This document shows positions 1 to 64,000 of a stretch of 64,000 nucleotides of DNA, piece by piece. Position 1 is the stretch's first letter. Each line of letters begins with the position of its first letter. Origin of the DNA: Trypanosoma brucei (lineage: Eukaryota); contig CM000207.1 in assembly GCA_000002445.1 (NCBI GenBank), forward strand, positions 2,688,001 to 2,752,000, in the 5' to 3' direction. The translations under genes were made by a program, and so were the position numbers. The notes under the pieces were generated by a model. It did no database searches and was not told where the DNA came from. It was given only the letters and a program-made list of their open reading frames with translations.

Positions 1-345
1 AAAATTGAAATGGAGGATTTTTTAAAATAACCTTGAAGTTATATAAAAATTATACAGATGCTTCAAACATAGATCTATATGCTTGATAGGTTGTAACTGG
101 CCGCAACGAAAAATAAGGCGTAGTCAGGGCCGACGGACAACAGAAAATCGACAAATCCGAACACGACATAACGGTTTAGAGGCTGTCTGCGTCAAAGGAG
201 AAGCGCTGCCGATGCACAAAGGCCATAGCGGTCAGCCGAGAAATGCTATAGTTAAAAAACCAACATAAGCAGCACATTAAAATCAACCTAGCCATTTACA
301 AACAAAGATCCCTAAACAAAGCAAAGCACACGTAAGTAAGCGACA

Positions 346-1660: not shown

Positions 1661-2043
1661 GTGTGATCAAAGGAACAGAATTGTAAATGAGAAAATAATG
1701 CTTAAAAAAATTCAAGTTTCCTTGCAAATTAAATTTTAATATGATTGCTGCTGATTTTGTGAGATTTCTATTATCAGGAATTTTGCTCAATTTCACAAAA
1801 TTTGCCATTAACGGAGATTTATCTATATTTGGTAAAATATGAAATATTTTAAAAACCATTTAATAAAATGCATAAACTACATAAATTAATAAAAATTTTA
1901 CGTATAACATTTTGTTATGAAAGTGGAATATTTTTTCAAAGTAATGGGCAAATAGGGTATGAAAATGAATCATATTAATAAACTGTTCGAATTATGTTAA
2001 CTAGTAATAGTAAGAATGCCTTCCGCATGTCTGGCACCTCAAC

Positions 2044-5000
2044 GTGGTGCCATGGTCCAGTACCCCGTATCATCGGGGGAAGCCAAGAGCTAGCAGCGTT
2101 CCTTTCATGGGAAACACTGCTGCCTCTTGGCTTTCCCCGATGATACAGCACAGGGATCAGCAGCGTCTTGCTGGGACACCGTTTTTCATTTGTCGGTCCC
2201 TGGGCACGTCAAAGCGTGCCATCAGCAGTATCATCCGCACTAAGATGCTGCTGTCCGGTGATGTGGAAGAGAATCCCGGCCCGTCGTTGCGCGGGATGCA
2301 GTGGAACTGCGCCGGGCTATCTCAAGGAAAGAGATTAGCACTCCACAAAACCCTTGTTGATGAGCGGATCGCCTTTTGTCTGTTGAGCGAGACAAGGATG
2401 ACGCTTGGAGAGGAGGCTTGCTTTACCGTTTCTGGCTACCAACATCACGGAATAGCTCGTAACTGCAAAGGAGGTGGTGTATCAATACTAGTGAGGGAGG
2501 ACTTACTAGTCGAGACCGGTATGGCCGTTGTTGGTCGCATTGAACAAGTGCATGCAACAATTCACCTTGCACGTGGAACGGCGCTGACTGTCACGTCGGC
2601 ATACGTCCCACCAAAACACACCTTCACGGCAACTGACCTAGATACGCTTCTGACAACTGACGGTGCCCAGCTCATCGGTGCAGACGCTAACGCACACGCG
2701 TTGGCATGGGATCGCACGAGCCCACCAAATACCAAGGGTGAAACCCTCACACAGTGGTGCATTGACAACCAGTTTCTGGTCTGCAACACTGGTGAGTGCA
2801 CCAGGTACGCGCGCCACCACGGGGAATCTACCCTTGATGTGACACTGTCAAGGAATTGCACAGTGTACATGTGGACATCGCTGTATTCTCCAGATAGCGA
2901 TCACCATAACATATTTTTCGACGTTATCGTTGGAGACGACACAGATGCACTGAGTTGCACGCGGCCTCGAATGCCCATGTACGTATGGCTAAAAGCTGAC
3001 TGGAGGAATTTCCGTCTCAAGGTTGACGAGCTCTGCAGGAAAATTGGTAGAGAGAAGAACGTCAATACCCTGGAACAGAAATTGAGCTCCGCCATCCGCA
3101 TTGCGACGAAGATGTTCGTCCCCCGTGGCTGCAGAGCAACGCCACCACATTGGACACCAACGCTCACTAAACTCGATGAAGAGATCGCTGGATGCGGACC
3201 CTCCCACCGAAGGGAAATGTTGGTAGCCACGCGTAAGCAGATCCTGGACCGTACCACAAAGAAGAGATGGAGAACGCTATGCTCCAGACTTGCGGTGTCA
3301 GACCGCTGCAGTTGGCACATTGTCAAGAAGGTATATGCGCCACGACCACTAACCACACTGGCGGTACTTGTTGATAACGCGGCCATCACGGACTACCGTC
3401 AAGCTGAGAGGTTCAGTAAACTGTACTCGTCCCGCGCAAGAAGGCAACCCGACTCACACCCACCGGCACCCATAAAGACGATAGCGAGTGAGTTCAGTCC
3501 CATCACGATGGCTGAACTACGGAGATCGATCAAACTGCTTCCGACCGGATCCGCAGCCGGACCTGATTGCTTATACAACGAGGCACTGCAACATCTCGGC
3601 AGAAAAGCGCTGAATGTTGTTCTGAGGCTATTCAATGAGAGCCTACGAGCGGGAGTCGTGCTGCCTGCATGGAAGATTGGTGTTATCATCCCCATCCTGA
3701 AGGCCGGAAAAAAGGCGGAGGACCTCGATTCTTACAGGCCTGTGACGCTCACGAGCTGTCTCTGCAAAGTCATGGAGCGCATAATTGCCGCGAGGCTTAG
3801 AGACACTGTTGAGTCCCAGCTGACGCCGCAGCAATCAGGCTTTCGCCCCGGATGCTCAACGCTCGAACAACTCCTGCACGTCCGCGCTGCCCTCTGCCGT
3901 CCCACGCACCAACATCGTACGGGTGCTGTATTCGTTGACTACGAGAAGGCATTCGATACAGTAGACCACGACAAAATTGCGAGGGAAATGCACAGAATGA
4001 AGGTATCACCCTACATTGTGAAGTGGTGCGTATCATTTCTGAGTAACCGAACTGGCAGAGTGAGATTCAAGGAGAAGCTTTCCAGAAGCAGAACATTTGA
4101 GCGAGGAGTGCCAAAAGGAACTGTCCTTGGCCCAATCATGTTCATTATTGTCATGAACTCGTTGAGCCAACGCCTTGCAGAAGTGCCGTTACTGCAGCAC
4201 GGATTCTTTGCAGACGACCTAACGCTACTTGCGAGGCACACAGAGAGGGATGTCATCAACCACACACTGCAATGCGGCCTCAACGTGGTGTTACAGTGGT
4301 CAAAAGAGTACTTTATGTCTGTCAACGTAGCGAAAACAAAGTGCACACTCTTCGGGTGTACAGAGCGCCATCCCCTTACATTGCAACTGGACGGCGAAAG
4401 AATAGGAGCTGACAGGACACCGAAGCTTCTCGGAGTAACATTCCAGCGTCTGCATGGGATGGCAACACATGCAGCCGAAACGAGACGCAAGATGGACTTC
4501 AGAATACTGCAGATAGCAGCCATCTCAGCTTCTACATGGGGGCCAAGACGACAAGTGCTGAGAGCTTTTTATCTAGCACTCGTACAGGCACACACCATGT
4601 ATGGCATTGAGGTATGGTACTGGGACGCTTCGGAACGAAGTCGCGACCTCCTTGCAGCAGCACAACACAAAGCCAGTCGCATCATAGCTGGCATACCGCA
4701 TGGGACGCGCAAAGAGGACTCTCTGCTGGAAGCAAACCTCCTGCCACTCAAGACGACCACTCTTGTGCGCAGCATGAAATTCATGCTGATGTGTGAGTCA
4801 CGAGGCGGATGTTTGCGGCGCAGTGCTGAAGAAGTATACCACAGCAAACACCCAGTCAGAGCCCTACATTCCCGCATCATGCTGTCGTACCCTCTTCTCC
4901 ACATTGAGCCACGCGAGCACCCACTAGAGACATCGACGCTCCGCCACAGCTGCCGACCGCTATTTCACACGCAGATAAAGCCTGTGTGCGCTGATGACCC

Positions 5001-5382
5001 TGACGATGTCAAAAGGGAGGCTTCCGAAAAGTGGATTGAACGGCATTTTGCACGGAGGGGGAAGGAGCCACCGCGACGAGAGCACTACGAATTGTGGACT
5101 GATGGATCCGTGTCCCTCTGTGAGAAGTCCGGAGCAGTTGCTCTGCTCTATAAAAACAATACGCTTATTTGTGCACCCAAAACCGGAGCAGGGGAAATCT
5201 CATGCAGTTACAGAGCGGAATGCGTAGCATTAGAGATAGAACTGCAACGGCTGCTGAAATGGCTTCCGGCATACAGAAGCACACCGAGCAGGTTGTCCAT
5301 CTTCTCTGACTCGCTGTCAATGTTAACAGCACTGCAGACAGGCCCCCTAGCCGTAACGGACCCAATTCTAAGACGACTATGA
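2044..5382 (+). CDS. ingi polyprotein, N-terminal 1112 aa: 2A-like peptide, AP-endonuclease, reverse transcriptase, start of RNase H; ends at in-frame TGA 5383-5385
   Basis: ORF track 1112 aa; motifs DVEENPGP, RT segment ...PVTLTSCLCKVMERII... and GFFADDLTLLA (Y/FxDD box), RNase H-like ELWTDGS...AECVALE. Confidence 0.9.
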   Translation: MVPWSSTPYHRGKPRASSVPFMGNTAASWLSPMIQHRDQQRLAGTPFFICRSLGTSKRAISSIIRTKMLLSGDVEENPGPSLRGMQWNCAGLSQGKRLALHKTLVDERIAFCLLSETRMTLGEEACFTVSGYQHHGIARNCKGGGVSILVREDLLVETGMAVVGRIEQVHATIHLARGTALTVTSAYVPPKHTFTATDLDTLLTTDGAQLIGADANAHALAWDRTSPPNTKGETLTQWCIDNQFLVCNTGECTRYARHHGESTLDVTLSRNCTVYMWTSLYSPDSDHHNIFFDVIVGDDTDALSCTRPRMPMYVWLKADWRNFRLKVDELCRKIGREKNVNTLEQKLSSAIRIATKMFVPRGCRATPPHWTPTLTKLDEEIAGCGPSHRREMLVATRKQILDRTTKKRWRTLCSRLAVSDRCSWHIVKKVYAPRPLTTLAVLVDNAAITDYRQAERFSKLYSSRARRQPDSHPPAPIKTIASEFSPITMAELRRSIKLLPTGSAAGPDCLYNEALQHLGRKALNVVLRLFNESLRAGVVLPAWKIGVIIPILKAGKKAEDLDSYRPVTLTSCLCKVMERIIAARLRDTVESQLTPQQSGFRPGCSTLEQLLHVRAALCRPTHQHRTGAVFVDYEKAFDTVDHDKIAREMHRMKVSPYIVKWCVSFLSNRTGRVRFKEKLSRSRTFERGVPKGTVLGPIMFIIVMNSLSQRLAEVPLLQHGFFADDLTLLARHTERDVINHTLQCGLNVVLQWSKEYFMSVNVAKTKCTLFGCTERHPLTLQLDGERIGADRTPKLLGVTFQRLHGMATHAAETRRKMDFRILQIAAISASTWGPRRQVLRAFYLALVQAHTMYGIEVWYWDASERSRDLLAAAQHKASRIIAGIPHGTRKEDSLLEANLLPLKTTTLVRSMKFMLMCESRGGCLRRSAEEVYHSKHPVRALHSRIMLSYPLLHIEPREHPLETSTLRHSCRPLFHTQIKPVCADDPDDVKREASEKWIERHFARRGKEPPRREHYELWTDGSVSLCEKSGAVALLYKNNTLICAPKTGAGEISCSYRAECVALEIELQRLLKWLPAYRSTPSRLSIFSDSLSMLTALQTGPLAVTDPILRRL
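2260..2283 (+). other. 2A-like ribosome-skipping peptide motif (DVEENPGP) at codons 73-80 of ingi ORF
   Basis: gat gtg gaa gag aat ccc ggc ccg read directly from sequence; matches the D(V/I)ExNPGP 2A consensus reported for L1Tc/ingi-clade elements. Confidence 0.85.
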
Positions 5383-5412
5383 AGGCTTCTGCTTCAAGTT
5401 CAGAGAAGGAAG

Positions 5413-6741
5413 GTGCGTATCAGACTGCAATTTGTGTTTGGCCATTGTGGCGTGAAACGGAATGAGTTTTGTAATGAAATGGCCAAAAAGGCCGCTGATT
5501 TACCACAGTTGCGAGACACATGGATCCCCGACATCATTGCTTATGCGAAGCGAGTGCTTAGGTCGGAAGAAGTCCATGAGAACACTCATAGGTTTGGTAT
5601 CACGGGCAACCACTTTCCAACAAAACATAAGGAAGAACTGACGAGGGAAGAAGAAACGGCACTGGCACGCTTTCGGGTTGGGTCTTCAAGACACTATGGA
5701 TGGATGTTGCGAAAGATCAACCCGAGTGTGCCTCCACAGTGCCGATGGTATAACCCGCAACATGCAGCGATAGGACCAACAATACAAACAGCCCCAACTG
5801 TTGCGACACGCACTCTTCAGAGAACCTCCGAACCGACCAAATGTACGGAATGTGATGCCACATACCAATGCCGCTCGAGTACTGTAACGCACATGGTAAA
5901 CAAACATGGCTTTGTGCGAGCTGATGCCCACCGGAGGATCAAATACGGCGATGCAACACCCGCAGTGGATATCCCCCCGGAGCCCCCTCCAGTGGTGGCG
6001 ATCGTTCCTTTACTATCGAGCACACGAGTCCTGATGAGACCGCAGGTGCTTCATTGTACCATCTGTGCCTCCAAATTCGCAGTACCAGGCCGACTACTAC
6101 ACCACCTTAGAACAATACATGGCATAGGTAGCGGTAGTTGCCGCGTGAAAAGGGGGCGAGAGAACGAGGACTCAGTGCAAGGAGATGGTAGAGCCCCAGC
6201 AGCGCCAGTCTCTCAGGATACACGGAAGCTGCCGTTTCAATGTGACCTGTGCGAGACGAGCTTCGGTACACGCTCTTCCCGGTCACTACACAAGAAATTC
6301 AAACATAAGAGCATAGTGACGGAGGACGGTACCGTGGTGGTGGTGCAATTCCCTCGTAAGCGTGCCCGTGAAGGAAACGTTGACGTCCCGGGGAAAGGCG
6401 AGGTGCAGTGTGGTGTGTGCCAAAAAGTGCTCAGTTGCAGGGATTCTCTCATCCGACACTGTAAGGCTTTCCACAAAGGTGAGGGAGTCGAGGTTAAATG
6501 CAGCAAAAGCACAAAATTGTGTGCCACTGATTCCCCGCATACAAATGCATCCATGTTGGTGTGCCTGACATGCGGAAGGCAGTGTGCTAGCAAAACTGGC
6601 CTCACCCTACATCAAAAGAAGATGCACGGTATGAAGGTAGAGCGCGCTGTTACCAGCCAACGCGGCGACTGCGAAGAAACGGCGCTGCACCTGATGAGCT
6701 GTCCCGGTTTGAAGGAATTACGTGTCAGGTTAGCTGTATAA
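5413..6741 (+). CDS. ingi polyprotein C-terminal portion (same frame as 2044..5382, separated by one TGA): end of RNase H plus four C2H2 zinc fingers
   Basis: Same reading frame (positions 1 mod 3) as upstream ORF; fingers CTICASKF..HHLRTIH, CDLCETSF..HKKFKH, CGVCQKVL..RHCKAFH, CLTCGRQC..HQKKMH. Confidence 0.85.
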   Translation: MRIRLQFVFGHCGVKRNEFCNEMAKKAADLPQLRDTWIPDIIAYAKRVLRSEEVHENTHRFGITGNHFPTKHKEELTREEETALARFRVGSSRHYGWMLRKINPSVPPQCRWYNPQHAAIGPTIQTAPTVATRTLQRTSEPTKCTECDATYQCRSSTVTHMVNKHGFVRADAHRRIKYGDATPAVDIPPEPPPVVAIVPLLSSTRVLMRPQVLHCTICASKFAVPGRLLHHLRTIHGIGSGSCRVKRGRENEDSVQGDGRAPAAPVSQDTRKLPFQCDLCETSFGTRSSRSLHKKFKHKSIVTEDGTVVVVQFPRKRAREGNVDVPGKGEVQCGVCQKVLSCRDSLIRHCKAFHKGEGVEVKCSKSTKLCATDSPHTNASMLVCLTCGRQCASKTGLTLHQKKMHGMKVERAVTSQRGDCEETALHLMSCPGLKELRVRLAV

Positions 6742-9453
6742 GGTGAGTGTGTGCAGGATGTATGATTCTCTAAAAGGCTGGCGCAATTTCTCATTGCGGT
6801 TGAACGAAGCCGGCCGCATGTGAAGTCCTCCCCTAATGTAACAGTTATACAACCCACTTTCCTTTCTGCAACTTTCCCCCTTATTGCCGAGTGTGGAGCT
6901 AGCAGGAAAAGCACCGGACGCAGGAATAGTCCAGACACCCTCAGAGACAGAGGAGGTATGCAGTCAACAAGCAACAGGAACAGAAAGAGGGGGAGAGAAT
7001 AATAAACGAATAACAAAAATCAACACAAAAGGGTTGCTAATTGACATCTTTGGGAGAGTCCGGGTTGGGTGGCTTCTCGCCCCATCTGCTGTATTCCGTT
7101 CAACTGCGGAGCTACAACAAAAATTATAGAGAGTGTGTTAGGCTGAATAAAAAAGGGAGACTCTGCCACAGTCGCCAGACCGATAGCATCTCAGGGCTCT
7201 ACGGTGATGGCTGATGGTCGCGCCAGTGGGGGGAAACTCCCACGAAGGCACGAAGAAAATTTAAAAAAAAAATTCCTGCTCCAACCCCTGGTCTAGGACT
7301 TTTGCAGTCTTACAGATCGCTGCGAATGTCGCTGGCTCGAAAGGTTTGCCTGAGGCCTCTCCACATTTGGTTACAGCTCCGCATGGGATTGCTACTGTTG
7401 CAAAAAGTCCCTGCAGCGTTGTGCTTGCAATTGCCATGAAATCCTGGTCTTGTGTATTGTTGTAATGGAAATAGCGAGTGGGATGCGCAGGTGAGCTACT
7501 TGGCTAGGCTTGGTGTGATTTTTCCTTTAGAACCTGGGACAGGGGTGTGGTATTGGTTTCTAGCTTATCGCCGCTTGCAGCAGCTATTGTCCAGGTTACA
7601 CGGTTTATATCGGCGCTGAAGTTGTGACTGCACGCAATAACCGTATCTGTAGTCAGCTGTGAATCTGGTATGTTAATTGGGTGTCTAATAATAACCGTGC
7701 AAAACGTTGTTTTGATGCTTGACAAGTCTGTGATTTGTATTCGACGACAGTTCGTGTGCCGAGAGCGGTGGTTGGCACCGGCAATGATGTGAATTTTCCG
7801 GCGTTTACTTGCGCGCCGAGGACTGGTCCGCCAGCCCTCACCTACAACTGTGTATCCATGAATAACACGGGTAGTGCTGCCGCCAGAGGGTTAATGTGCG
7901 TTTAAATTAGTGATCACCCAGTTGTTACTAACAGAATGCATTCTTTACACATTTTTCCTGTGCCAGAAAGAGGTGACAGTGCTTTTTGCGCAAGAGCTTT
8001 GGACTGAGAATTTTAAGCTGCCGTTAGTTTTAGGGTTTGAATAGTTGAGCCATGTAATTTGCTTTCGGTTCCGACTTTCTTGATGTGGTAGAGACGCACT
8101 GAATCCCCTGGCTGAAACGTGTATTTGCAAATCGCTATGCATTTCGCCGCTACCTATAGGGTTTTGACATGTGGTAGCACAAGTTAAGTCGCCAGGGCTG
8201 CACTTTCTTAAAGGAAAAATTGTGCTGCCATTTGCTTTTTACCTAAGTAAATGAGTTTTGTTGATCAGCTATGAGTGTTTATGCTTGTATGCGCTACCGG
8301 TTGTGAAGGTCACGAGGTATAATTGTGTTTTGCGGGATTTATAATCTATCCATACACCAATGTATCAAAACATTTGGTTCTACCGCTTTCAGATAAATGT
8401 GTTAAGTTCATAAATCTTCTAAACCTCTCTATATAGAAATTTTCAATATTTATGGGTGTTTGTAGGTTTTTTATACTTTTATTTTATTTTTACAGCTTCT
8501 TTAATAACAAAGTGACGGTGAAGTTTTTATTGGAAACTATTGTTCTCCTGCTCGTGGTTCGAACTATTCCCTCCTTCACGCCAACACAAATTTAGATTTG
8601 GAAAATTGTATCCTTAAAGTGCTTTTCGTGTTGCTTTTGTTTTATTAATACAATCTGTTAGTATTGCATTAGTCACAACATTTATGTTAAATATTTGTTA
8701 CGCGAGATCTCTTAATGTCTGTTCAGTATAACAATACGGTATTGGTCTAGTGTCACAAGTAATTCTCTCTACTTAACAGTGATCCTCCGTGGTTTCATAT
8801 ACGTGGCTTCTCATTTTATTCACGGTGCTCCGTAGTAAAGCTTTAGTCAACAGCGTCTGCTTTCGCTATAACTGTGTACAACGCTGTAGCTACACTTGGT
8901 CCGTCCGTTCCTCTGCGAGTATTAATGATCTCAAACTCCAAATTCTTTTGTATGATGCTTTTTTGTTCATTTCTCCTTTTCCATAAATAATTTTTCTCAT
9001 GATAGCAGTCTTTTACTGACTCACTATCCCACTCACTCACTTAATTTGATTGTACCACTGCCACTGTTTTAAGTCTTTTTATTTTTCTATGCATTTATTA
9101 TGCACTAACATAATAATAATTATATTATCATATGCAGCCTTCTTTAATATCATTAATATTATAATTATTAGTATTGCTACTATTATAAACACAACTAATA
9201 TCCATTTAAAAACAAAATATAATAATTTGTAATATCACGCTTTTTTCATATTCTGTCACCATATTACTCTGTACATATAAAACACTGTCACATTCATTCA
9301 CTAAAATTTGCACATTTTTATTAAAAAGTGTTTAAACATATCGAACGTTATCAAATTCTTAGAAAAATATATAATTTTCACAAAAAAGCAAAGTCTTCAT
9401 AAATTTCATAAAATTTAGAAAAAATCCTTATAATTTTAATAATCCTTATAATG

Positions 9454-44436: not shown

Positions 44437-44660
44437 ATTCGTATATACACACTCACAACACTCTTCTATCATTATCATCATCATTATTATTATTATTATT
44501 ACTGCTCTTATTATAATATTCGTATAGACACACACTCACAAGACTCTCCTATCATTATCATCATTATTATTATTATTATTATTACTGCTCTTATTATAAT
44601 ATTCGTATAGACACACACTCACAAGACTCTCCTATCATTATCATCATTATAGCCCTAACT
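44437..44660 (-). repeat. 70-bp repeats, three tandem units (~80-bp period)
   Basis: Three near-identical units CTCTTATTATAATATTCGTATA(G/T)ACACACACTCACAA(G/C)ACTCT(C/T)CTATCATTATCATCATTATTATTATTATTATTACTG read directly. Confidence 0.9.
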
Positions 44661-49837: not shown

Positions 49838-51419
49838 TGCTTGCAGTCAGCTGTAGCTCTCTTATTTGTTTTTAGTCCTATTTTTTGTTTCTTAAAGTTG
49901 TATGGAAAGAAGACTAGTCAATCATATAGTTTGAGTAGACTTTTGCTGCCTCTTCCAGTCTACTCAAGTTCAAGGTTCGTTATGAGGTAGTGTTACTGCT
50001 TAACCTAATTTGGGGTCCATTGACTTGTACTTCGTGTAGATCACCATTGTTTGCTTGTTATTCTTAGTGAAAACTTGTTCTTCGGTGCTGAAACTTAGTA
50101 TTACCGTCGTGGGGCAGCCGTGGTCGGTTCAGTCATGTACTTTTTGAGTGTGCTACCCGCTGGTCAGTGGAGCTGTCCACACTGTGTACTTCTGCACTTT
50201 TCAAGCGTCTGTCTGTCACACTTCTAGAAGTTAGCTGCACTCACGTCTTAGCGGCGCATGACAGTGACGTTGCTTTGTAAAGCTGTCTTAATCTTTTGTG
50301 GTGAAATTTAGTTTTTACCTTTTTTCCTTGTCACATTTTGTGTGTTATGATGATGGCTGAGCTAGCGGGATGTTGCCTTAGATAAGTTGGAGTCCGCCTT
50401 TAGCTCCTCATTATTTTATTTGATCCATGATGTCATTTGGATTTGAGGTCGGTTATTTTGGTGAGCTTTCTTTCCCCGAGTCTCAAATTCCTCGTGATGT
50501 AGCTGTTCTGTACTATTCCAGACATTATTGGTTTCTTTTCAGTACTCCATTAGAAAAAGCTAAAAAACTACAAAATAATAATATGAAATGACTACTCTCT
50601 GTTTTTTCTCCTTTAAGATGAAATAAATTGCACTTTTTAAAATTATCTCTTATCGAGCCAACTATATTTGCCATTTAAATAAAATTCCCTTCCTTCGCAT
50701 AGCTTTACTCTCGAAATAAACGAACTTCTTGCTTTTTTCGATACCTTAGCCAATTCTCCTTGGTATAAAAACCAGTAAAAGTTACTATTTCAACACTATT
50801 TTGTATGAGAGCACCGTTTTATCGATTTTTTGTCTTTGGTTTTCAATGCATTATTACACTAGCTCCTAGTCTCTTTGAATTTGTTGCTTATTCTGACACT
50901 TCCTCCAATACTAGGTAAAATAGTAATTTGGTTGATTCGTTGTTGCCGCATTTGCTTACTTAACTTCGGTAATAGACGCAACTACAGACAAACGTTTAGT
51001 CTTTTACCTGCTCAAGCTTGTGATGTGTTACTCTGATTCGTATCAAGTGTTTTACTCCATGTTATCTTTCCATTCTCTCTCTTCTGTTGTTGCTTCTGCG
51101 TATAACATGGCGACTCCATTGAGGCTACACACTGGACCATTTTCCTACTTATTTTTCACCATCTATCTTCTTGTGTATGATTATGCGTATTGTCATGCCC
51201 GTGTTGTAAAATTGGTACGTTCCATTATCTTGTCTCTTTCTGTCTGTCTCTATAGCGTTCTATCAACAATATTTCTCATGTGCTTCGTGTCTCTCACACT
51301 TACCATCCTACTCACCCGTTGGCACTTACTTCACTCTTGGCATTTTTTGATTCTATTTATGAAGCCAATTTGGTTTTCGCAAACATTCTTTTATATTAAT
51401 AGTGTACAAGGTCGCAAAA

Positions 51420-51530
51420 ATATACAGTCATTATTATCATTATCATTGTTATTATTATCATTACTATTAATATTACTACTTCTTTTATTATAATATTTGG
51501 ATATGCACACTCACAACACTCTCACCGTTT
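51420..51530 (-). repeat. 70-bp repeat(s), minus orientation, upstream of VSG 48275..49837
   Basis: CTTCTTTTATTATAATATTTGGATATGCACACTCACAACACTCTCACC preceded by TTATTATCATTATCATTGTTATTATTATCATTACTATTAATATTACTAC. Confidence 0.75.
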
Positions 51531-51599
51531 TATACTAAAGTAGAATATGAAATATTATATTTATACACTTATACTGTTATATTTAGTATTTTCAAGCTC

Positions 51600-52340
51600 A
51601 GTACCTATTCAAGAAGAAACAACGGCAAATATGGCAGAGAAGGGCCTTAAGAAGCCAAGAATATTTGTGGTTGTAGTTCAAACTCATGCAACTCAAGGAT
51701 GGTGTAGGCTCATATTGAGTGCCAAACTAAACAATGTTGCAATTATTATAATTGCAATGGGTGGTCTGTATAGTCATGTTAAAAGGCCTAGATGGGTTAT
51801 GGAATTTTAGAAAAACAGAATGCATGTAATAAGGATATTGTAATAACTGTTTGATGGGTCTGATGTTATTGTTACTGACGGACAAAAGTGTGAAGATGCT
51901 GTGGAGTATTTTAGTCATGACAACATCAGAGTGTTATGCTCCTCAGTTGATTTTGCTCATGAACTCAGATCACAAGGAGCATGTGCAGAGATGTTATTGG
52001 TATTTCAATGTTGTAAACAGGAAAGAGGAGGATAAAAAGTTTCCTCATTTACTAAAATCACCTCCTAGTGGAAACCCCTATCTTAGTGGTGAAAATATAA
52101 TAGCAAGAGTCTGGGCATTTAAGAAATTTGAATGTGCATTTGGAGAGTTACTGAAAGAAAGTGATGAATGATTGCCAGAGAAGAGTATTTATGCTACACT
52201 GCTAATTGGTAGTGTTACTTAAAAGGAAGCTGTTGGACAGAGATTTGTTTTGAAGCGAGGAATGATTGGTCTGGATTATGAAGAGAGATTATTTTCTTTT
52301 CCGCATAGTGATAAAATTGGAAAGGCTGTATTTATTTATT
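51600..52340 (+). pseudogene. Fragmented copy 3 of unassigned array-associated family
   Basis: ORFs 51547..51810 (IFVVVVQTHATQGWCRLILSAKL...IAMGGLYSHVKRPRWVMEF) and 51851..52171; further homology to copy 2 continues to ~52340 with stops. Confidence 0.6.
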
Positions 52341-52922
52341 TCACAGGACAGCGAATGGCATGAGAGGAGAAGGAAAAATTGATTGCGATGAATTTAAGTT
52401 AATTTAGAGAGTGAGAAAAGAGGATATTTGGTGTAAAAGATTTGGCAGAAATTTAAACTTATTTGATTGACAGTGAAAAATGGAATTTTGAATATGGTGA
52501 GGTTCGCGGAGAGGTGTCAAGTGATGGGAAGTTGTTTAACGCTAAGAAATTGTAGTTGATAACCGGTGGAAGCAAGCAAATAAGCATGTCTAGGGGCGGC
52601 TAAGTATAATAATAGCGACTCATATGGAGGAAGTACCAGAGTCAGAGCTGAATTAAGCAGTTTTGACTAATGCTTCCTTAATTCCGCAGATTATCAGTTG
52701 TGGAGTAGCAAATACATGGCCATCGGATTCCACATGGAAGAGCAGAGTGCCAAAATCGCAGTCAAGCGCAAAACCACTTCGAACATCTATAGCAATTAAA
52801 TTAAAAGGCAAAACTCAAAACAACCGACGACTGGTTACAACATCAGAAAACTGGAGTAGCTGCAGAAACACAATACAACAACCTCCTTACCTCGCTCAAC
52901 CTAAATACAAGGAGAAACAGGC

Positions 52923-54377
52923 ATGATAAGAGCGATAGCCACAATAGCTTTGCTGAGCGCAGGTGCGGCAAGAGCTACACCGCCGGCAGACGACGACAAC
53001 ATAGCAACGCTGACATTGCTTTGCCCAGCACTGCAGTTAGCGGACGGCAAAATAACATTCGAGCCGACGCGACCGACGACGGCAGCAGATATTAATGATC
53101 TGCTCGCTTTAAACATGTCCCTTGCGGATTCAACTTGGCAAGCGAAATTCCAAAAAGCAAAGTCTGACAAAAGTAGCTCAAGTGACCTGGAACGGGCCAA
53201 GGAAGAAAAACTGGGAACTCAAGCTGAAATGACAGCCTGGGCCACAGCCGCCTAAGCAATCAACTCAAAAACTAAATTAGACGCCGTTCTCAAACCGTAC
53301 GGATACGACTCTACAAACATGTCCTTGCTAGCCACAGCGGCTCAGGAAATAAAACACTACACCGCACTGGCCTTTGACGCGCAGCAGCAATTAGCAGCCG
53401 CAACCATCAACGACAAACCCGATACAGAGTTAAAGCAAGCACTAGACAAAGCGATATACGGCGGGTCAGGCGGATACAAAAACACTAGGACAAAAGATGC
53501 AGGGCTCAACAGCGCCGAACCTCGCCAAACCGCTTGCGTAGAAGCCGCCAACACACACAATCCGATCAAAACAATATCCACCATAGTGGCCTGCATTTGC
53601 GCTGTGAAAAACGACATGTCACCGACGCCGACGGCACCGTGTGGACCAAACAGCGAACAATCGATAAAGTGGGAAGCCACCGGCCTACCACTGGCCGCGG
53701 CCTGGAACAAACTGCGCACAAGGTGCCCAGTGCTAACCGAAACAACGATAACAGCAAGCAAAGTAGAGACCGCGCTGAACACAGCCAAGCAGGCATTTTA
53801 CGGCAAAGGAACCGACCTTTACGTGGGAAAATACGACACCGCCGGTTGCGACGGGTCGGCAACCGGCGCATGTATAAAATACACAAACCAAGCGACAAGC
53901 GGCATACCCAAATTCGACAAAGCGGCGTGGGTCAGCGAGTTAACTACTATCATAACTGCACTAAGAGCCCGAGAAAAAGCGACCGAACGCATAAACGCGC
54001 TCCAAAACCAAATAGCGACAGCAAAAGTATTAGTAGCAGCCGCAGCTAAACATCCGCAGAGCATGAGCGACAGACTAACCGACACTGGCGGTAAAACGCA
54101 AAAACCAGAAGACGGCGACACCATTAAAGCGGCACAAAAAGAAATAGACTGCACATCACTGGACAAAGAGACATGTAAACCCGACGTTGGGTGCAAATAT
54201 AATGAAAAAGAAAGCAAATGTGAAAACGACTCTGTAAAAACTACAACAACTCCAGCCACCACAAACACCACAGCAAGCAATTCTTTTACAATTAAGAAAG
54301 CCCCTCTTTTGCTTGCAGTTTTTCTTCTAAAATTAAAAAATTTAGAATTTAATCTCGAGTTTATTATTTTATTTTAA
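52923..54377 (+). pseudogene. VSG (leader plus N-terminus 52923..53255, stop, then 53319..54377 with GPI signal SNSFTIKKAPLLLAVFLL)
   Basis: ORF track; B-type motif LLALNMSLADSTWQAKFQK. Confidence 0.85.
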
Positions 54378-55721: not shown

Positions 55722-57133
55722 GTGGCAGCCGATTTTTCTGAACTCGCGAATGCTAACGAAGCGACGGCGCTTTGTGCGATCGTAACACTCGCCGGCCAGC
55801 GGTCTTCGTTACCCAGCAGCAACGTACAACCACCGTCAGCCCTCAACGACCTCTTAGACCTCAACATGTCGGTGGCGACAAACGAATGGCGGGAACTCTT
55901 CAGGGCAGGGCCAGGGAAAAACACAACGAGGGATTTCCCTGAGGCCGACTACAATGAAACAACAGACTGGAAAGGAAAATGGGCCGCATGGAAAAGCAAA
56001 GCAGAAGAGCTTCTGAGCACAGACAAACTTAAAGCCAAGAGGGAGCAACAAGGGCTAAAACATGCAACTGAAGAACAGATAGCCGAAATCCGACGCGACG
56101 TGCAGAAACGTGCGGCGGAAGCGGTGGCGCTTCACTTCCAAGCAGAAGCGGACGCGCCATCGACAGACCTTCTAACGGACGAGACAATACAACAGCTTCT
56201 AAACGAAGCAGTCTACGGCCAAAAAACGGAAGCAACAGGTCAAGCTTTGGCAAAAAACAATTTCGACGAGACAACAGGCGGCAGCAGGCAGGCGCTCTGC
56301 ACAGGACAAAAGGATGGCGGAAAAACAAAAACGGTCCTCGGTACGCTGGCGTGCCTCTGCATGAAAGAAAGCACCAACAACGCCCATAATCAACACAAAG
56401 TATGCCGAGCCGATCCCGCCATGTCGGCAACATGGACCCAAGGTAGTACGCCGCCGAATCAAGCGACGATGGAGGAAGTGAAAAAACTGTGTGACACTCA
56501 AACGACAAGCCAAATAACTGCGGCGAAGCTAGAATCAAAAATAGACGCCATAACAAGCCTTATAAAGTTAGACACAACAAAGGCGACCCTCGGTGTGTAT
56601 CTAGGTACAGACTGCTCAGCACAAGATACAAGAGGGATATGTGTAAGCTACAACGGCCTTTCACAAGGAGCGGGAAAAGCCAGCGAAGTGATACCTTGGC
56701 TGGAGCAGCTTACCGACCTGCTAGGAAAATTACGAAAACATAAAAAAGCCGTTGCAATCCGACAGCACACTGCAGATGCAGTAAAGTCAAAAGCCAAGAT
56801 AACGAAGGACCTAATCTACCATGCGCGACCGTGGGCAAACAAAAACGTTGCTCAGAAGAATGTCAAAAAAAAAATAGTGACGACGCAACCTTAGCAAAAA
56901 CAAAAGAATGCGCACAACACAAAAATAACAAAAAACCTTGCACAGGAGCGAAATGCTCATGGAAAGGTGGAGAAAGCGAAAACAAAGGGGAGTGCGAAGT
57001 AGATGAGAAACAAGTTAAAAAGAAAATAAAAACAGAAAACAGTGAAAATGCAGGAACAACAAACACTACAGGAAACGATTATGCTGTTATTAACAAGTAG
57101 CCTCTTTTTCTCGCAGTTTTGCTTCTAGAATAA
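55722..57133 (+). pseudogene. VSG (390-aa ORF 55722..56894, frameshift, C-domain 56831..57100, GPI tail PLFLAVLLLE* in third frame to 57133)
   Basis: ORF track plus manual reading 57098-57133. Confidence 0.8.
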
Positions 57134-59250: not shown

Positions 59251-59511
59251 TCTGACAACAGTTGACGTGCTAAACAGTAAGATGCAACAACCTGTGTACC
59301 TCCAGAATGAAGTTTACCGTAAGTGTTTTTTTGACCATGCTAAACAACAACGAACAGGTTAAACATCACAATATCATCAAATGAAGTCACCCTTACGTTG
59401 CATATTAACAGCGATAAAAAATTAAACTCTTCACATATGATGTCAATGTTTCAAAACAAACCTCTTCTCAACAAACGCTAACGATATACAGGAACCAAGG
59501 AGGCACACACT

Positions 59512-60268
59512 ATGTTTCAAACCACATTAGTAACAGCAATAACAGTAGTCCTTTTTGCGGATAAATGTGCACCGACAGCAGGACACAATATCAAAGAATT
59601 CGCGCTAATGTGTCAACTATTTACCACGTGCGAACAGGGGACTTCAACCACTGGAAACGAGGCTGAACCAACACTAGAATCTGAAACAAAAAACGTTAGT
59701 CGTCAATAACATGTCGGCAGCAGATGAAGAATTCTTCGGAAGTAACTTCGACGACGTCCAAGACCATAAAAAGGACAAGAACTACGCAAAACACAAAAAC
59801 ACTTGGGCACAAACTAAAAAAAAGGATTTAGGCACAAAAAAGATAGGAAATATACCGGAAAAACTTACACGTATGACCGCCGGTACACTTCGGTTCGGTA
59901 TACAACAACAAGCACTGGAAGCGATACCTAACCTCGAAGCAGAAAAAGCGGCGTTGCCCAAGGACAAGACAACGATAACGATAAATTATGACCTAAAGGA
60001 GGTTCTGTACGGCGAAGGAAACACAGAAGCAAAGGGTACCTGGCAGTCAACGTTCGGCAGCGGCGGCAACGCAGCATGCGGCAATGACGGTAGCGCAGAC
60101 AACAAGGTCGGCACATCTCTAGCCAACGGCCTGGCCTGCCGTTGCGGCGACAACTCGGACGACACGGCTGCCGCAGGTTGTATAAGCAACAGGAGCTCAA
60201 CCGGAAGCAAGTTCGCCAGCGAAGCCTGTGGCCCAGCACCCAAAGCGACAATAGTGGCGAAATACTAA
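59512..60268 (+). pseudogene. VSG N-terminal fragment (leader 59512..59709, frameshift, N-domain 59711..60268), 3' part replaced by ingi copy 2
   Basis: ORF track; LACRCGDNSDDTAAAGC-type VSG N-domain motifs. Confidence 0.6.
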
Positions 60269-60602
60269 AAAAAACAGCACTACTGGAAGCACTCCTCGTG
60301 ACTTTTAAGTCATTATTAGGCAAACATGCCGTACACACGCCATCGGCGCAGTACAACTACGGCCCCTGGCGATGCCGGCCACCTCAACGTGGTGCCAGGG
60401 TCCAGTACCCCGTATCATCGGGGGAAGCCAAGAGCCAGCAGAGTTCCTTTCATGGGAAACACTGATGTGCTCCGGCTACGGCATCATACAGCACAGGGAT
60501 CAGCAGCGTCTTGCTGGGACACCGTTCTTCATTTGTCGGTCCCTGGGCACGTGCCAGCGTGCCATCAGCAGTATCATCCGCACTAAGATGCTGCTGTTCG
60601 GT

Positions 60603-60626
60603 GACATGGAAGAGAATCCCGGCCCG
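60603..60626 (+). other. 2A-like motif DMEENPGP in ingi copy 2
   Basis: gac atg gaa gag aat ccc ggc ccg within ORF 60372..60680. Confidence 0.85.
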
Positions 60627-60739
60627 TCGTTGCGCGGGATGCAGGGAACTGCGCCGGGCTATCTCAAGGAAAGAGATTAGCACTCCAAAAAACCCTTGTT
60701 GATGAGCGGATCGCCTTTTTTCTGTTGAGCGAGACAAGG

Positions 60740-63700
60740 ATGACGCTTGAAGAGGCGGCTTGCTTTAGCGTTGCTGGCTACCAACATCACGGAATAGCTC
60801 GTAACTGCAAAGGAGGTGGTGTATCAATACTAGTGAGGGAGGACCTACCAGTTGAGATCGGTATGGCCGTTGTTGGTCGCATTGAACAAGTGCATGCAAC
60901 AATTCACCTTGCACGTGGAAAGGCGCTGACTGTCACGTCGGCATACGTCCCACCAAAACACACCTTCACGGCAACTGACCTAGATACGCTTCTGACAACT
61001 GACGGTTACCAGCTCATCGGTGCAGACGCTAACGCACACGCGTTGGCATGGGATCGCACGAGCCCACCAAATACCAAGGGTGAAACCCTCACACAGTGGT
61101 GCATTGACAACCAGTTTCTGGTCTGCAACACTGGTCAGTGCACCAGGTACGCGCGCCACCACGGGGAGTCCACCCTTGATGTGACACTGTCAAGGAATTG
61201 CACAGTGTACATGTGGACATCGCTGTATTCTCCCGATAGCGATCACCATAACATATTTTTCGACTTTATCGTTGGAGATGACACAGATGCACTGAGTTGC
61301 CCGCGGCTTCGAAAGCCCATGTACGCATGGCTAAAAGCTAACTGGAGGAATTTCCGTCTCAAGGTTGACGAGCTCTGCAGGAAAATTGGTAGAGAGAAGA
61401 ACGTCAATACCCTGGAACAGAAATTGAGCTCCGCCATCCGCATTGCGACGAAGATGTTCGTCCCCCGTAGCTGCAGAGCAACGCCACCACATTGGACACC
61501 AACGCTCACTAAACTCGATGAAGAGATCGCTGGATGCGGACCCTCCCACCGAAGGGAAATGTTGGTAGCCACGCGTAAGCAGATCCTGGACCGTACCACA
61601 AAGAAGAGATGGAGAACGCTATGCTCCAGACTTGCGGTGTCAGACCGCTGCAGTTGGCACATTGTCAAGAAGGTATATGCGCCACGACCACTAACCACAC
61701 TGGCTGTACTTGTTGATAACGCGGCCATCACGGACTACCATCAAGCTGAGAGGTTCAGTAAACTGTACTCGTCCCGTGCAAGAACGCACCCCGACTCACA
61801 CCCACCGGCACCAATAAAGACGATAGCGAGTGAGTTCAGTCCCATCACGATGGCTGAACTATGGAGATCGATCAAACTGCTTCCGACCGGATCCGCAGCA
61901 GGACCTGATTGCTTATACAACGAGGCAATACAACATTTCGGTAGAACAGCGCTGAATGTTGTTCTGAGGCTATTCAATGAGAGCCTACGAACGGGAGTCG
62001 TGCTGCCTGCATGGAAGATTGGTGTTATCATCCCCATCCTGAAGGCCGGAAAAAAGGCGGAGGACCTCGATTCTTACAGGCCTGTGACGCTCACAAGCTG
62101 TCTCTGCAAAGACATGGAGCGCATAATTGCCGCGAGGCTTAGAGACACTGTTGAGTCCCAGCTGACGCCGCAGCAATCAGGCTTTCGCCCCGGATGCTCA
62201 ACGCTCGAACAACCGCTGCACGTCCGCGCTGCCCTCTGCCGCCCCACGCACCAATATCGTACAGGTGCTGTATTCGTTGACTACGAGAAGGCATTCGATA
62301 CAGTAGACCACGACAAAATTGCGAGGGAAATGCACAGAATGAAGGTATCACCCTACATTGTGAAGTGGTGCGTATCATTTCTGAGTAACCGAACTGGAAG
62401 AGTGAGATTCAAGGAGAGGCTTTCCAGAAGCAGAACATTTGAGCGAGGAGTGCCACAAGGAACTGTCCTTGGCCCAATCATGTTCATTATTGTCATGAAC
62501 TCGTTGAGCCAGCGCCTTGCAGAAGTGCCGTTGCTGCAGCACGGATTCTTTGCAGACGACCTAACGCTACTTGCGAGACACACAGAGAGGGATGTCATCA
62601 ACCACACACTGCAATGCGGCCTAAACGTGGTGTTACAGTGGTCACAAGAGTACTTCATGTCTGTCAATATAGCGAAAACAAAGTTCACACTCTTCGGGTG
62701 TATAGAGCGCCACCCCCTTACATTGCAACTGGACGGCGAAAGAATAGGAGCTGACAGGACACCGAAGCTTCTCGGAGTAACATTCCAGTGTCTGCAGGGG
62801 ATGGCAACACATGCAGCCGAAACGAGACGCAAGATGGACTTCCGACTACTGCAGATAGCATCCATCTCAGCTTCTACATGGGGGCCAAGACGACAAGTAC
62901 TGAGAGCTTTTTATCTAGCACTCGTACAGGCACACACCATGTATGGCATTGAGGTATGGTACTGGGACGCTTCGGAACGAAGTCGCGACCTCCTTGCAGC
63001 AGCACAACACAAAGCCAGTCGCATCATAGCTGGCATACCGCATGGGACGCGCAAAGAGAACTCTCTGCTGGAAGCAAACCTCCTGCCACTCAAGACGGCC
63101 ACTCTTGTGCGCAGCATGAAATTCATACTGATGTGTGAGTCACGAGGCGGATGTCTGCGCCGCAGTGCTGAGGAAGTACACCACAGCAAACATCCAGTCA
63201 GAGTCTTACATTCCCGCATCATGCGGTCCTACCCCCACCTCCGCATTGAGCCACGCGAGCACCCACTGGAGACATCGACACTCCGCCACAGCTGCCGACC
63301 GCTATTTCACACGCAGATAAAGCCTGTGTGCGCTGATGACCCTGACGATGTCAAAAGGGAGGCTTCCGAAAAGTGGATTGAACGGCATTTTGCACGGAGG
63401 GGGAAGGAGCCACCGCGACGAGAGCACTACGAATTGTGGACTGATGGATCCGTGTCCCTCGGTGAGAAGTCCGGAGCAGTTGCTCTGCTCTATAGAAACA
63501 ACACGCTGATTTGTGCACCCAAAACTGGAGCAGGGGAACTCTCATGTAGTTACAGAGCGGAATGCGTAGCATTAGAGATAGGACTGCAACGGCTGCTGAA
63601 ATGGCTCCCGGCTTACAGAAGCACACCGAGCAGGTTGTCCATCTTCTCTGACTCGCTGTCAATGTTAACAGCACTGCAGACAGGTCCCCTAGCCGTAACG

Positions 63701-64000
63701 GACCCAATTCTGAGACGACTATGGAGGCTTCTGCTTCAAGTTCAGAGAAGGAAGGTGCGTATCCAACTGCAATTTGTGTTTGGCCATTGTGGCGTGAAAC
63801 GGAATGAGGTTTGTGATGAAATGGCCAAAAAGGCCGCTGATTTACCACAGTTGCGAGATACATGGATCCCCGACATCATTGCTTATGCGAAGCGAGTGCT
63901 TAGGTCGGAAGAAGTCCATGAGAACACTCATAGGTTTGGTATCACGGGCAACCACTTTCCAACAAAACATAAGGAAGAACTGACGAGGGAAGAAGAAACG
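60740..64000 (+). CDS. ingi copy 2 polyprotein: open frame (positions 2 mod 3) from ATG 60740 to window edge, more than 1080 codons (endonuclease, RT, RNase H), no internal stop; absent from the ORF track probably because no stop codon is reached
   Basis: Manual codon-by-codon reading against copy 1 found no in-frame stop; copy-1 TGA (5383) is TGG at 63733-63735; a 1-nt deletion at ~60648 separates it from the 2A-containing ORF 60372..60680. Confidence 0.7.
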   Translation, partial: MTLEEAACFSVAGYQHHGIARNCKGGGVSILVREDLPVEIGMAVVGRIEQVHATIHLARGKALTVTSAYVPPKHTFTATDLDTLLTTDGYQLIGADANAHALAWDRTSPPNTKGETLTQWCIDNQFLVCNTGQCTRYARHHGESTLDVTLSRNCTVYMWTSLYSPDSDHHNIFFDFIVGDDTDALSCPRLRKPMYAWLKANWRNFRLKVDELCRKIGREKNVNTLEQKLSSAIRIATKMFVPRSCRATPPHWTPTLTKLDEEIAGCGPSHRREMLVATRKQILDRTTKKRWRTLCSRLAVSDRCSWHIVKKVYAPRPLTTLAVLVDNAAITDYHQAERFSKLYSSRARTHPDSHPPAPIKTIASEFSPITMAELWRSIKLLPTGSAAGPDCLYNEAIQHFGRTALNVVLRLFNESLRTGVVLPAWKIGVIIPILKAGKKAEDLDSYRPVTLTSCLCKDMERIIAARLRDTVESQLTPQQSGFRPGCSTLEQPLHVRAALCRPTHQYRTGAVFVDYEKAFDTVDHDKIAREMHRMKVSPYIVKWCVSFLSNRTGRVRFKERLSRSRTFERGVPQGTVLGPIMFIIVMNSLSQRLAEVPLLQHGFFADDLTLLARHTERDVINHTLQCGLNVVLQWSQEYFMSVNIAKTKFTLFGCIERHPLTLQLDGERIGADRTPKLLGVTFQCLQGMATHAAETRRKMDFRLLQIASISASTWGPRRQVLRAFYLALVQAHTMYGIEVWYWDASERSRDLLAAAQHKASRIIAGIPHGTRKENSLLEANLLPLKTATLVRSMKFILMCESRGGCLRRSAEEVHHSKHPVRVLHSRIMRSYPHLRIEPREHPLETSTLRHSCRPLFHTQIKPVCADDPDDVKREASEKWIERHFARRGKEPPRREHYELWTDGSVSLGEKSGAVALLYRNNTLICAPKTGAGELSCSYRAECVALEIGLQRLLKWLPAYRSTPSRLSIFSDSLSMLTALQTGPLAVTDPILRRLWRLLLQVQRRKVRIQLQFVFGHCGVKRNEVCDEMAKKAADLPQLRDTWIPDIIAYAKRVLRSEEVHENTHRFGITGNHFPTKHKEELTREEET

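What the first reader, a model, noticed from the sequence alone, without database searches (positions are those of the whole stretch)
60361..64000. ingi copy 2 has an uninterrupted >1080-codon frame; copy 1 carries an in-frame TGA
Copy 1 splits its polyprotein at TGA 5383-5385 (same frame on both sides). Copy 2 has TGG at the homologous position and reads open from ATG 60740 to the window edge through the endonuclease, RT (FADD) and RNase H domains. Its only lesion in-window is a 1-nt deletion (~60648) eight codons after the 2A site, which detaches the short 2A-containing leader ORF (60372..60680) from the enzyme ORF. Most genomic ingi copies are heavily degenerate, so a copy this close to coding-competent is a candidate source element. 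The TGA in copy 1 could also be tested as a readthrough site.
Basis: seen in the sequence. Interest (0 to 1): 0.6.

Follow-up and report, generated by a model that had tools for sequence, protein, structure and literature searches.

The report
Near-intact but disabled ingi retrotransposon copy
This is an ordinary copy of the well-known Trypanosoma brucei ingi retrotransposon, cut off by the window edge, whose long open frame is real, but one frameshift leaves the nuclease without its first two catalytic residues, so it is one step from intact rather than a likely active source.

Summary
The frame of ATG 60740 has no stop up to 64000 (1087 codons), and it is already open from 60605 (1132 codons). 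Copy 1 has an in-frame TGA where copy 2 has TGG. A single T is missing in copy 2 after 60644.

Two coordinates need small corrections: the TGA lies at 5380-5382, and the deletion lies between 60644 and 60645.

Both elements are Trypanosoma brucei-group ingi, about 96.5% identical in DNA to an intact 1656-aa copy from T. b. equiperdum. Copy 2 has a Pr77 5' end identical to the consensus, and all its visible endonuclease, RT and RNase H catalytic motifs are intact.

Copy 2 is nevertheless disabled:
- The deletion falls in the Trp codon of the first endonuclease motif (QWN).
- ATG 60740 lies three codons after the catalytic Glu, so an ATG-started product lacks the equivalents of L1 N14 and E43.
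- Seven ATGs precede 60740.
- No slippery heptamer exists that could support frameshifting.
- It carries private changes: V79M in the 2A motif, and V581D and L615P in RT.
- Its private divergence (1.2%) resembles that of dead copies.
- A stop-free frame at that divergence has a chance of about 0.2.

Copy 1's TGA is a private nonsense mutation among at least five lesions, not a readthrough site. The 3' 1.6 kb of copy 2 could not be retrieved.

The parts
60364..64000 (+). ingi copy 2. It covers element positions 1-3635 of about 5252, and its 3' part lies beyond the window.
   Evidence: BLASTN and MAFFT against the intact reference element L001:2993-8244 give 96.5% identity and two indels.
60364..60442 (+). 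Pr77 / 79-bp hallmark (internal promoter and HDV-like ribozyme region of the ingi/L1Tc clade).
   Evidence: Identical to the six-copy consensus over the first 79 nt. The function is taken from PMC4035085 and PMC4748587 and was not tested here. No Rfam family matched.
60372..60680 (+). Detached leader ORF (102 codons). It consists of canonical ingi codons 1-91, then 11 out-of-frame codons, then TAG.
   Evidence: The start MPATSTWCQGPVPRIIGGSQEP matches the intact 1656-aa protein P0075.
60603..60626 (+). 2A-like motif DMEENPGP. The consensus copies have DVEENPGP, so this is a private V79M, with a private S76F upstream.
   Evidence: The motif definition D(V/I)ExNPGP and the tested activity of the ingi 2A come from PMC3708506.
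60644..60645 (+). Site of the 1-nt deletion. The T of the TGG codon for Trp92 in the QWNCAGL endonuclease motif I is lost.
   Evidence: It is absent from the five other aligned copies.
60605..64000 (+). Open enzyme frame (1132 codons) running off the window. The first in-frame ATG is at 60740 (codon 124).
60647..61249 (+). APE-type endonuclease domain. Key codons: N93 (60647-49), E121 (60731-33), GADANAH (61019-39), TLDVT (61172-86), DSDHH (61235-49).
   Evidence: Pfam PF14529 scores 49.8 bits against a cut-off of 27.4. A profile alignment to human L1-EN 1VYB aligns N93 with N14 and E121 with E43. Motif table.
62057..62785 (+). Reverse transcriptase domain. Motif A YEKAFD is at 62282-99, motif B PQGTVLGP at 62453-76, and FADD at 62549-60. 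The private V581D lies within 62105-22 and L615P within 62204-21.
   Evidence: Pfam RVT_1 at 150.7 bits..
63425..63838 (+). RNase H domain, with D (63437-51), E (63554-71), D (63644-61) and H..D (63782-820) motifs intact. TGG 63722-24 is homologous to copy 1's TGA.
   Evidence: Pfam RNase_H at 38.2 bits..
2019..7272 (+). ingi copy 1, full length, with a poly(A) end at about 7263-7272. It is inactivated by several lesions.
5380..5382 (+). Copy 1's in-frame TGA (W1118*), private to copy 1.
2113..2146 (+). Copy 1 patch that is an inverted copy of its own Pr77 segment 2067-2100. It adds 2 nt and shifts the frame.

Best explanation
Positions 60364-64000 hold the 5' 69% of a Trypanosoma brucei-group ingi element. 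Ingi is a non-LTR (LINE-like) retrotransposon with a single ORF. This copy sits in a subtelomeric VSG array, probably inside a VSG pseudogene.

An intact ingi is transcribed from, or processed at, its Pr77 5' end. It is translated from the ATG inside Pr77 into one 1657-aa polyprotein. A 2A 'StopGo' site releases an 84-aa leader just before the APE-type endonuclease. RT, RNase H and C2H2 zinc-finger domains follow.

Copy 2 descends from such an active lineage but is now a disabled copy. Loss of one T in codon 92 shifts the frame, so ribosomes starting at the canonical ATG stop at TAG 60678. Nothing in the sequence restores the frame. The long downstream frame is the still-unbroken remainder of the polyprotein frame, not a separate gene. 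It stays open because the copy is only moderately diverged.

Shown here: element identity, boundaries, lesions, motif status, substitution pattern, and the absence of recoding signals.

Inferred: that the deletion is real rather than an assembly error, that V79M, V581D and L615P are damaging, and that translation of the downstream frame is negligible.

Copy 1 is an older or more damaged sibling insertion. Its TGA is an ordinary nonsense mutation.
For: Identity. The enzyme frame is 94% identical in protein to a T. b. equiperdum ingi RT, but only 40-41% identical to T. congolense and T. vivax homologues. It is 96.5% identical in DNA to the intact copy L001:2993-8244. A six-copy majority consensus encodes a 1657-aa ORF, the size given for a functional ingi in PMC3447711.

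Domains. The Pfam families Exo_endo_phos_2, RVT_1 and RNase_H all score above their cut-offs. All catalytic motifs are present.

Frameshift. There is one 1-nt deletion at 60644/45. The leader ORF ends at 60680.

ATG 60740 product. For the truncated ORF the Pfam PF03372 match starts at profile position 59 of 225, against position 1 for the intact protein. The L1-EN 1VYB alignment places N14 and E43 upstream of codon 124. Seven upstream ATGs precede 60740. There is no in-frame ATG between TGA 60602 and ATG 60740, and no X XXY YYZ heptamer in 60600-60680.

Substitution pattern. Total differences from the consensus are 38 synonymous and 47 nonsynonymous, with no stop. That is a synonymous excess (p=0.0007), so much of the divergence arose under selection in active lineages. 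Private changes are 18 synonymous and 27 nonsynonymous (p=0.055), close to neutral.

Private changes. V79M, V581D and L615P fall at positions that are V/I or hydrophobic in seven distant homologues. They are absent from the 5 to 8 other ingi proteins covering each site.

Chance. The probability of a stop-free frame at 45 private substitutions is 0.22.

Copy 1. W1118* is private and sits alongside a +2 frameshift, Q696K, E1571* and C1579*.
Against: The 3' 1.6 kb of copy 2 (zinc fingers, 3' RIME half, poly(A), target-site duplication) is outside the window and could not be retrieved. Six exact-protein look-ups and one homologue search failed.

The consensus rests on only six copies. Four of them come from another subspecies and were found through long annotated ORFs, so 'private' overestimates post-insertion change and the sample is biased towards intact copies.

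The private synonymous fraction (40% against about 28% neutral) leaves room for a fairly recent origin from an active master.

The deletion cannot be checked against reads.

The damaging effect of the missense changes is inferred from conservation only.
Confidence: 0.85

Rival explanations
1. Copy 2 is, or very recently was, an autonomous source element. On this view the single-base deletion is an assembly or consensus error, or a very recent event, and the true locus encodes a full 1657-aa polyprotein.
For: The Pr77 is identical to the consensus. All catalytic motifs of EN, RT and RNase H are intact. There is only one frame-breaking lesion in 3.6 kb. Synonymous changes are in excess overall. 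Apparent frameshifts have been corrected in a T. brucei assembly, according to the title of Cosentino et al. 2021, seen in the reference list of PMC12975129.
Against: The lost base is a T between G residues, not a homopolymer length error. This is inference only, because no reads are available. V79M departs from the D(V/I)ExNPGP motif. V581D and L615P hit conserved hydrophobic RT positions and occur in no other copy examined. Private divergence is 1.2%, twice that of the intact copy and similar to dead copies. The 3' 31% is unseen.
Confidence: 0.09
2. Programmed recoding rescues the elements. On this view a -1 ribosomal frameshift in the 60605-60680 overlap of copy 2 fuses leader and enzymes, and/or the TGA of copy 1 is read through.
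For: The leader and enzyme frames overlap by 76 nt, and a -1 shift would fuse them. The same frame continues on both sides of copy 1's TGA.
Against: There is no X XXY YYZ slippery heptamer in 60600-60680 in any frame. The deletion and the TGA are each private to one copy, whereas intact copies and the consensus use a single uninterrupted ORF. Copy 1 has further stops and a frameshift that readthrough would not repair. The codon after the TGA is AGG. From my own knowledge, not tested here, this is not the CUAG-type context that favours readthrough.
Confidence: 0.02
3. The frame from ATG 60740 is an expressed, N-terminally truncated RT/RNase H protein that is kept by selection. It would be a domesticated or trans-acting RT that lacks nuclease activity.
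For: The ORF is long and open, and the RT and RNase H motifs are intact.
Against: Seven upstream ATGs and a 102-codon upstream ORF precede it. Private changes are near-neutral and include radical RT replacements. The openness is within chance at p of about 0.2. No protein with this N-terminus appears among the 15 listed cluster members.
Confidence: 0.03

Closest known systems
Tbingi (Trypanosoma brucei ingi), 5.25-kb non-LTR retrotransposon with a 4,971-bp ORF encoding 1,657 aa (PMC3447711, PMC2323293)
   Same: 96.5% DNA identity to an intact copy. The Pr77 5' end is identical to the consensus. The start codon, the position of the 2A site and the EN-RT-RNase H order are the same.
   Different: The ORF is broken by a 1-nt deletion at codon 92. 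The 2A motif reads DMEENPGP instead of DVEENPGP. There are private V581D and L615P changes in RT. The 3' third is not visible.
L1Tc of Trypanosoma cruzi (ingi/L1Tc clade), with Pr77 promoter/ribozyme and a functional 2A (PMC4035085, PMC3894237)
   Same: [quoted passage not shown]
   Different: It is a different species-level family. No L1Tc protein was identified among the hits here. The nearest non-brucei homologues listed, from T. congolense and T. vivax, are only about 40% identical. No L1Tc sequence was compared directly.
Human LINE-1 ORF2p endonuclease (PDB 1VYB)
   Same: The EN profile aligns at E=3e-15, and the N14 and E43 equivalents are conserved as N93 and E121.
   Different: It is a distant clade. 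L1 has a separate ORF1 and no 2A.
DIRE (degenerate ingi/L1Tc-related elements)
   Same: Both are non-functional relatives of ingi.
   Different: DIREs are described as highly degenerate (PMC4035085). Copy 2 has a single frame-breaking lesion and 96.5% identity to an intact ingi, so it is not a DIRE.

Membership tests
ingi (Tbingi) element | Conserved 77-79-nt Pr77 hallmark at the 5' end. | tested here: met
   60364-60442 is identical to the six-copy consensus.
ingi (Tbingi) element | High nucleotide identity to known ingi along its whole length. | tested here: met
   96.5% identity over 3635 nt to the intact copy in L001, and 96.4% to copy 1.
ingi (Tbingi) element | Single polyprotein frame with the order 2A, APE endonuclease, RT, RNase H, C2H2 zinc fingers. 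| tested here: inconclusive
   2A, EN, RT and RNase H are present in order. The zinc-finger region lies beyond 64000. It is seen in copy 1.
ingi (Tbingi) element | 3' RIME half, poly(A) tail and a target-site duplication of about 12 bp. | not testable with these tools
   The 3' end is outside the window, and extension attempts failed. The reference copy shows a TSD of TTCTCC(T)CACA. Copy 1 ends in poly(A) at about 7272.
potentially functional (autonomous) ingi | Uninterrupted ORF of 4,971 bp from the Pr77 ATG (PMC3447711). | tested here: not met
   A frameshift at 60644/45 ends the frame of ATG 60372 at TAG 60678-80.
potentially functional (autonomous) ingi | Catalytic residues of EN, RT and RNase H present. 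| tested here: met
   All motifs are intact in the repaired translation. An ATG-60740 product, however, lacks N93 and E121.
potentially functional (autonomous) ingi | 2A motif D(V/I)ExNPGP. | tested here: not met
   Copy 2 has DMEENPGP. The effect of Met at this position was not found in the literature searched.
programmed -1 ribosomal frameshift site | Slippery heptamer X XXY YYZ in the ORF overlap. | tested here: not met
   None in 60600-60680 in any frame.
programmed stop-codon readthrough (copy 1 TGA) | The stop codon is conserved among related elements. | tested here: not met
   Trp is present in the five other copies and in the T. congolense and T. vivax homologues.

The most novel reading that the evidence does not exclude
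The 1-nt deletion is an assembly artefact or a strain-private very recent event, and the unseen 3' part is open. Copy 2 would then be a full-length, coding-competent ingi of a sub-lineage marked by P269L and H294N (both shared with copy 1). It would be usable as a defined candidate master element in this strain.
Probability: 0.08. Interest if true: 0.3.

Novelty: already known. Interest (0 to 1): 0.1.

Why it matters
It matters little beyond annotation. Ingi, its 2A site, its Pr77 end and the existence of a few potentially functional copies are all established. The analysis gives a precise lesion map of two copies. It also shows that a long open frame alone is a poor marker of an active LINE. 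What counts is where the frame can start, relative to the first catalytic residues of the endonuclease, and how many private changes the copy carries. If reads showed the deletion to be an error and the 3' end proved open, the locus would be one more candidate autonomous ingi for retrotransposition assays.

Tried and rejected
Extending the window. Exact-protein look-ups all found nothing on record: VSG ORFs 59711-60268, 53319-54377 and 48527-49837, the leader ORF 60372-60680, and copy 1's ORF 2107-5382. A homologue search with VSG 55722-56894 gave only an 82% match.

Rfam. A scan of 60200-64000 gave no ribozyme family, only a chance CRISPR-repeat match at E=0.74.

PDB search with a single sequence. 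It reached only R1Bm EN weakly. A seven-sequence profile was needed to reach L1-EN.

First simulation. The first version of the stop-codon simulation was wrong, because ambiguous consensus bases filled with A created stops. It was redone on the intact reference ORF.

Literature. One search call failed on a too-short term. A search for '1657' found nothing, although the figure appears as '1,657' in PMC3447711. No data on Met at the V/I position of 2A were found. The count of potentially functional ingi per genome sits in a figure that the library does not hold.

Segmental duplication of copy 1 and copy 2 was considered and rejected. Their flanks differ and they are 3.6% diverged.

Non-AUG initiation was considered and rejected. 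None of the 14 enzyme-frame codons between TGA 60602 and the N93 codon is ATG or differs from ATG by a single base (read directly).
Full report
**What is in the sequence**

The window is a Trypanosoma brucei-group subtelomeric VSG array. ORFs matching the Pfam VSG_B domain lie on the minus strand between about 9.7 and 49.8 kb, and on the plus strand from 53.3 kb.

It holds exactly two ingi elements, both on the plus strand. Copy 1 runs from about 2019 to 7272 and is full length. Copy 2 runs from 60364 to the window edge, covering element positions 1-3635 of about 5252. No separate RIME copy was detected.

The protein of the long frame is 94% identical to a T. b. equiperdum 'reverse transcriptase'. 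It is only 40-41% identical to the T. congolense and T. vivax homologues.

**Checking the observation**

- Translating 60740-64000 gives 1087 codons without a stop.
- The frame is open from 60605, just after TGA 60602-60604. That makes 1132 codons, and ATG 60740 is its first in-frame ATG.
The same frame continues after it.
- Copy 2 has TGG at the homologous 63722-63724.
- The leader ORF 60372-60680 exists and contains DMEENPGP at 60603-60626.

**Comparison with intact ingi**

I retrieved an intact ingi for comparison. This is protein P0075 (1656 aa, T. b. equiperdum), at locus L001:2993-8244. It is flanked by a TTCTCC(T)CACA target-site duplication and ends in poly(A). Three further copies came from L002 to L004.

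Against these, copy 2 has only two indels in the window:
- The loss of one T between 60644 and 60645 (CAG TGG AAC becomes CAGGGAAC).
- A 3-nt difference that is really a private deletion in the reference copy.

**What a working ingi looks like, and where copy 2 departs from it**

The majority consensus of the six copies encodes a single 1657-aa ORF starting at the ATG inside Pr77. This is the size reported for a potentially functional ingi (4,971 bp, 1,657 aa; PMC3447711).

In copy 2, the first 79 nt (Pr77) are identical to the consensus. Pfam finds Exo_endo_phos_2, RVT_1 and RNase_H above their thresholds.

Once the missing T is restored conceptually, every catalytic motif matches the consensus and seven distant homologues:
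- Endonuclease: QWN, SET, DxN, D and SDH.
- RT: motifs A, B and C (FADD).
- RNase H: D, E, D and H..D.

**Why the long frame is not a competent gene**

The deletion falls in the Trp codon of QWNCAGL, the first endonuclease motif. Several consequences follow.

- Ribosomes starting at the canonical ATG 60372 terminate at TAG 60678-60680. After the 2A site they would make only an 18-residue tail.
- A profile of this endonuclease domain aligns to human L1 endonuclease (1VYB and related entries, E about 3e-15). Ingi N93 aligns with L1 N14, and ingi E121 with L1 E43. These are active-site residues of L1-EN; that statement rests on established knowledge of L1-EN and was not tested here.
- ATG 60740 is codon 124, three residues after E121. 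Accordingly, the Pfam PF03372 match of the ATG-60740 product begins at profile position 59. In the intact protein it begins at position 1.
- In the enzyme frame there is no ATG between the stop at 60602 and 60740. None of the 14 codons between that stop and the N93 codon is ATG or differs from ATG by one base (read directly).
- Seven ATGs in various frames precede 60740 within the element.
- There is no X XXY YYZ slippery heptamer anywhere in 60600-60680.

The sequence therefore offers no route to a protein containing a complete endonuclease.

**Is copy 2 young and source-like?**

Relative to the six-copy consensus, copy 2 has 38 synonymous and 47 nonsynonymous differences and no stop. The synonymous share of 45% exceeds the roughly 28% expected for random substitutions (p=0.0007). 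Much of its divergence therefore arose in functional lineages.

Half of these differences are shared with copy 1: 20 synonymous and 20 nonsynonymous.

The 45 changes private to copy 2 are 18 synonymous and 27 nonsynonymous (p=0.055), close to neutral. They amount to 1.2% of the sequence. Over the same region the intact reference copy has 21 private changes, and clearly dead copies have 50 to 69.

Among the private replacements:
- V79M alters the D(V/I)ExNPGP core of 2A.
- V581D and L615P put a charged residue and a proline at RT positions that are hydrophobic in all seven distant homologues.
- None of these three occurs in any of the 5 to 8 further ingi proteins covering those sites.

P269L lies next to a catalytic Asp, at a position invariant in this clade. 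It is shared by copies 1 and 2 and may be a lineage variant.

Simulating 45 random substitutions on the intact ORF leaves 1209 codons stop-free in 22% of trials. With 85 substitutions the figure is 5.6%. The unbroken frame is thus unremarkable for a copy of this divergence.

In the small and biased sample here, copies carry between 0 and 6 frame-breaking lesions over 5 kb. The literature already speaks of several potentially active ingi per genome (PMC2323293).

**Copy 1 and the readthrough idea**

W1118* is private to copy 1. The five other copies and the T. congolense and T. vivax homologues have Trp there.

Copy 1 also has:
- A degenerate first 16 nt.
- A +2 frameshift near 2138, caused by a 34-nt patch that is an inverted copy of its own Pr77 segment.
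- Q696K in the invariant PQG of RT motif B.
- Two further stops near the 3' end of the ORF, TAA 6739-6741 and one eight codons later.

A readthrough signal would not rescue this copy, and nothing suggests that one exists.

**Limits**

It could not be done. Six exact-protein look-ups and one homologue search found no public record of this locus.

The consensus rests on six copies. Four of them come from another subspecies and were found through long annotated ORFs. 'Private' counts are therefore upper bounds, and the lesion statistics lean towards intact copies.

The reality of the 1-nt deletion cannot be checked without reads. It is not a homopolymer length change, which argues mildly against a sequencing error; this is inference.

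**Verdict**

The thing itself is an ordinary, already well-characterised kind of element: a moderately diverged ingi copy that is one frameshift away from an open frame in its visible part. It also carries probable missense damage, and it has no means of expressing a complete endonuclease. Both interest and novelty are low.

Noticed in passing
window 2067-2100 and 2113-2146 (copy 1): There is a 34-nt inverted repeat, 88% complementary. Its 3' arm replaces the normal ingi sequence with a reverse copy of the element's own Pr77 segment and adds 2 nt. It is absent from copy 2 and from four T. b. equiperdum copies. It looks like a templated (hairpin or template-switch) mutation.
   Followed up: partly
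window 2019-2034 (copy 1 5' end); L003 5777-5801: The first 16 nt of copy 1 differ from the Pr77 consensus at 8 positions. One T. b. equiperdum copy likewise has an unrelated first 25 nt or so. The 5' ends of some copies are therefore replaced or truncated. A clear target-site duplication for copy 1 was not found.
   Followed up: partly
window 59488-60268, upstream of copy 2: A VSG_B-type pseudogene fragment (profile positions 80-239 of 352) ends about 100-200 nt before the ingi 5' end. Copy 2 probably interrupts a VSG pseudogene. The 3' flank needed to prove this is outside the window.
   Followed up: partly
window 61172-61186 and 61235-61249; copy 1 homologous sites: Copies 1 and 2 share P269L and H294N. 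P269L lies in the otherwise invariant (S/T)PD motif next to a catalytic Asp. Both changes are absent from all five T. b. equiperdum proteins covering those sites. They may mark a strain- or lineage-specific ingi subfamily.
   Followed up: partly
window 44417-44650: An 83-bp tandem repeat with 2.8 copies and 94% matches, ending in an ATT-rich run, lies between VSG ORFs. It may be related to the repeats that precede VSG genes. It was not compared with them.
   Followed up: no
window about 50000-53300: VSG ORFs switch from the minus strand (9.7-49.8 kb) to the plus strand (from 53.3 kb). Between them lies a low-complexity region containing ORF 51020-51493.
   Followed up: no
L001 9900-10971: A second, partial ingi 3' end lies in inverted orientation about 1.7 kb downstream of the intact T. 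b. equiperdum copy. It is 97% identical to that copy.
   Followed up: no
proteins P0004-P0011 (environmental homologues): Distant homologues from metagenomes keep a 2A-like G-D-(V/I)-E-x-N-P-G-P motif at the N-terminus. Three of them have a Cys-rich insert between 2A and the endonuclease. This is consistent with the architectures described by Odon et al. 2013 (PMC3708506).
   Followed up: no
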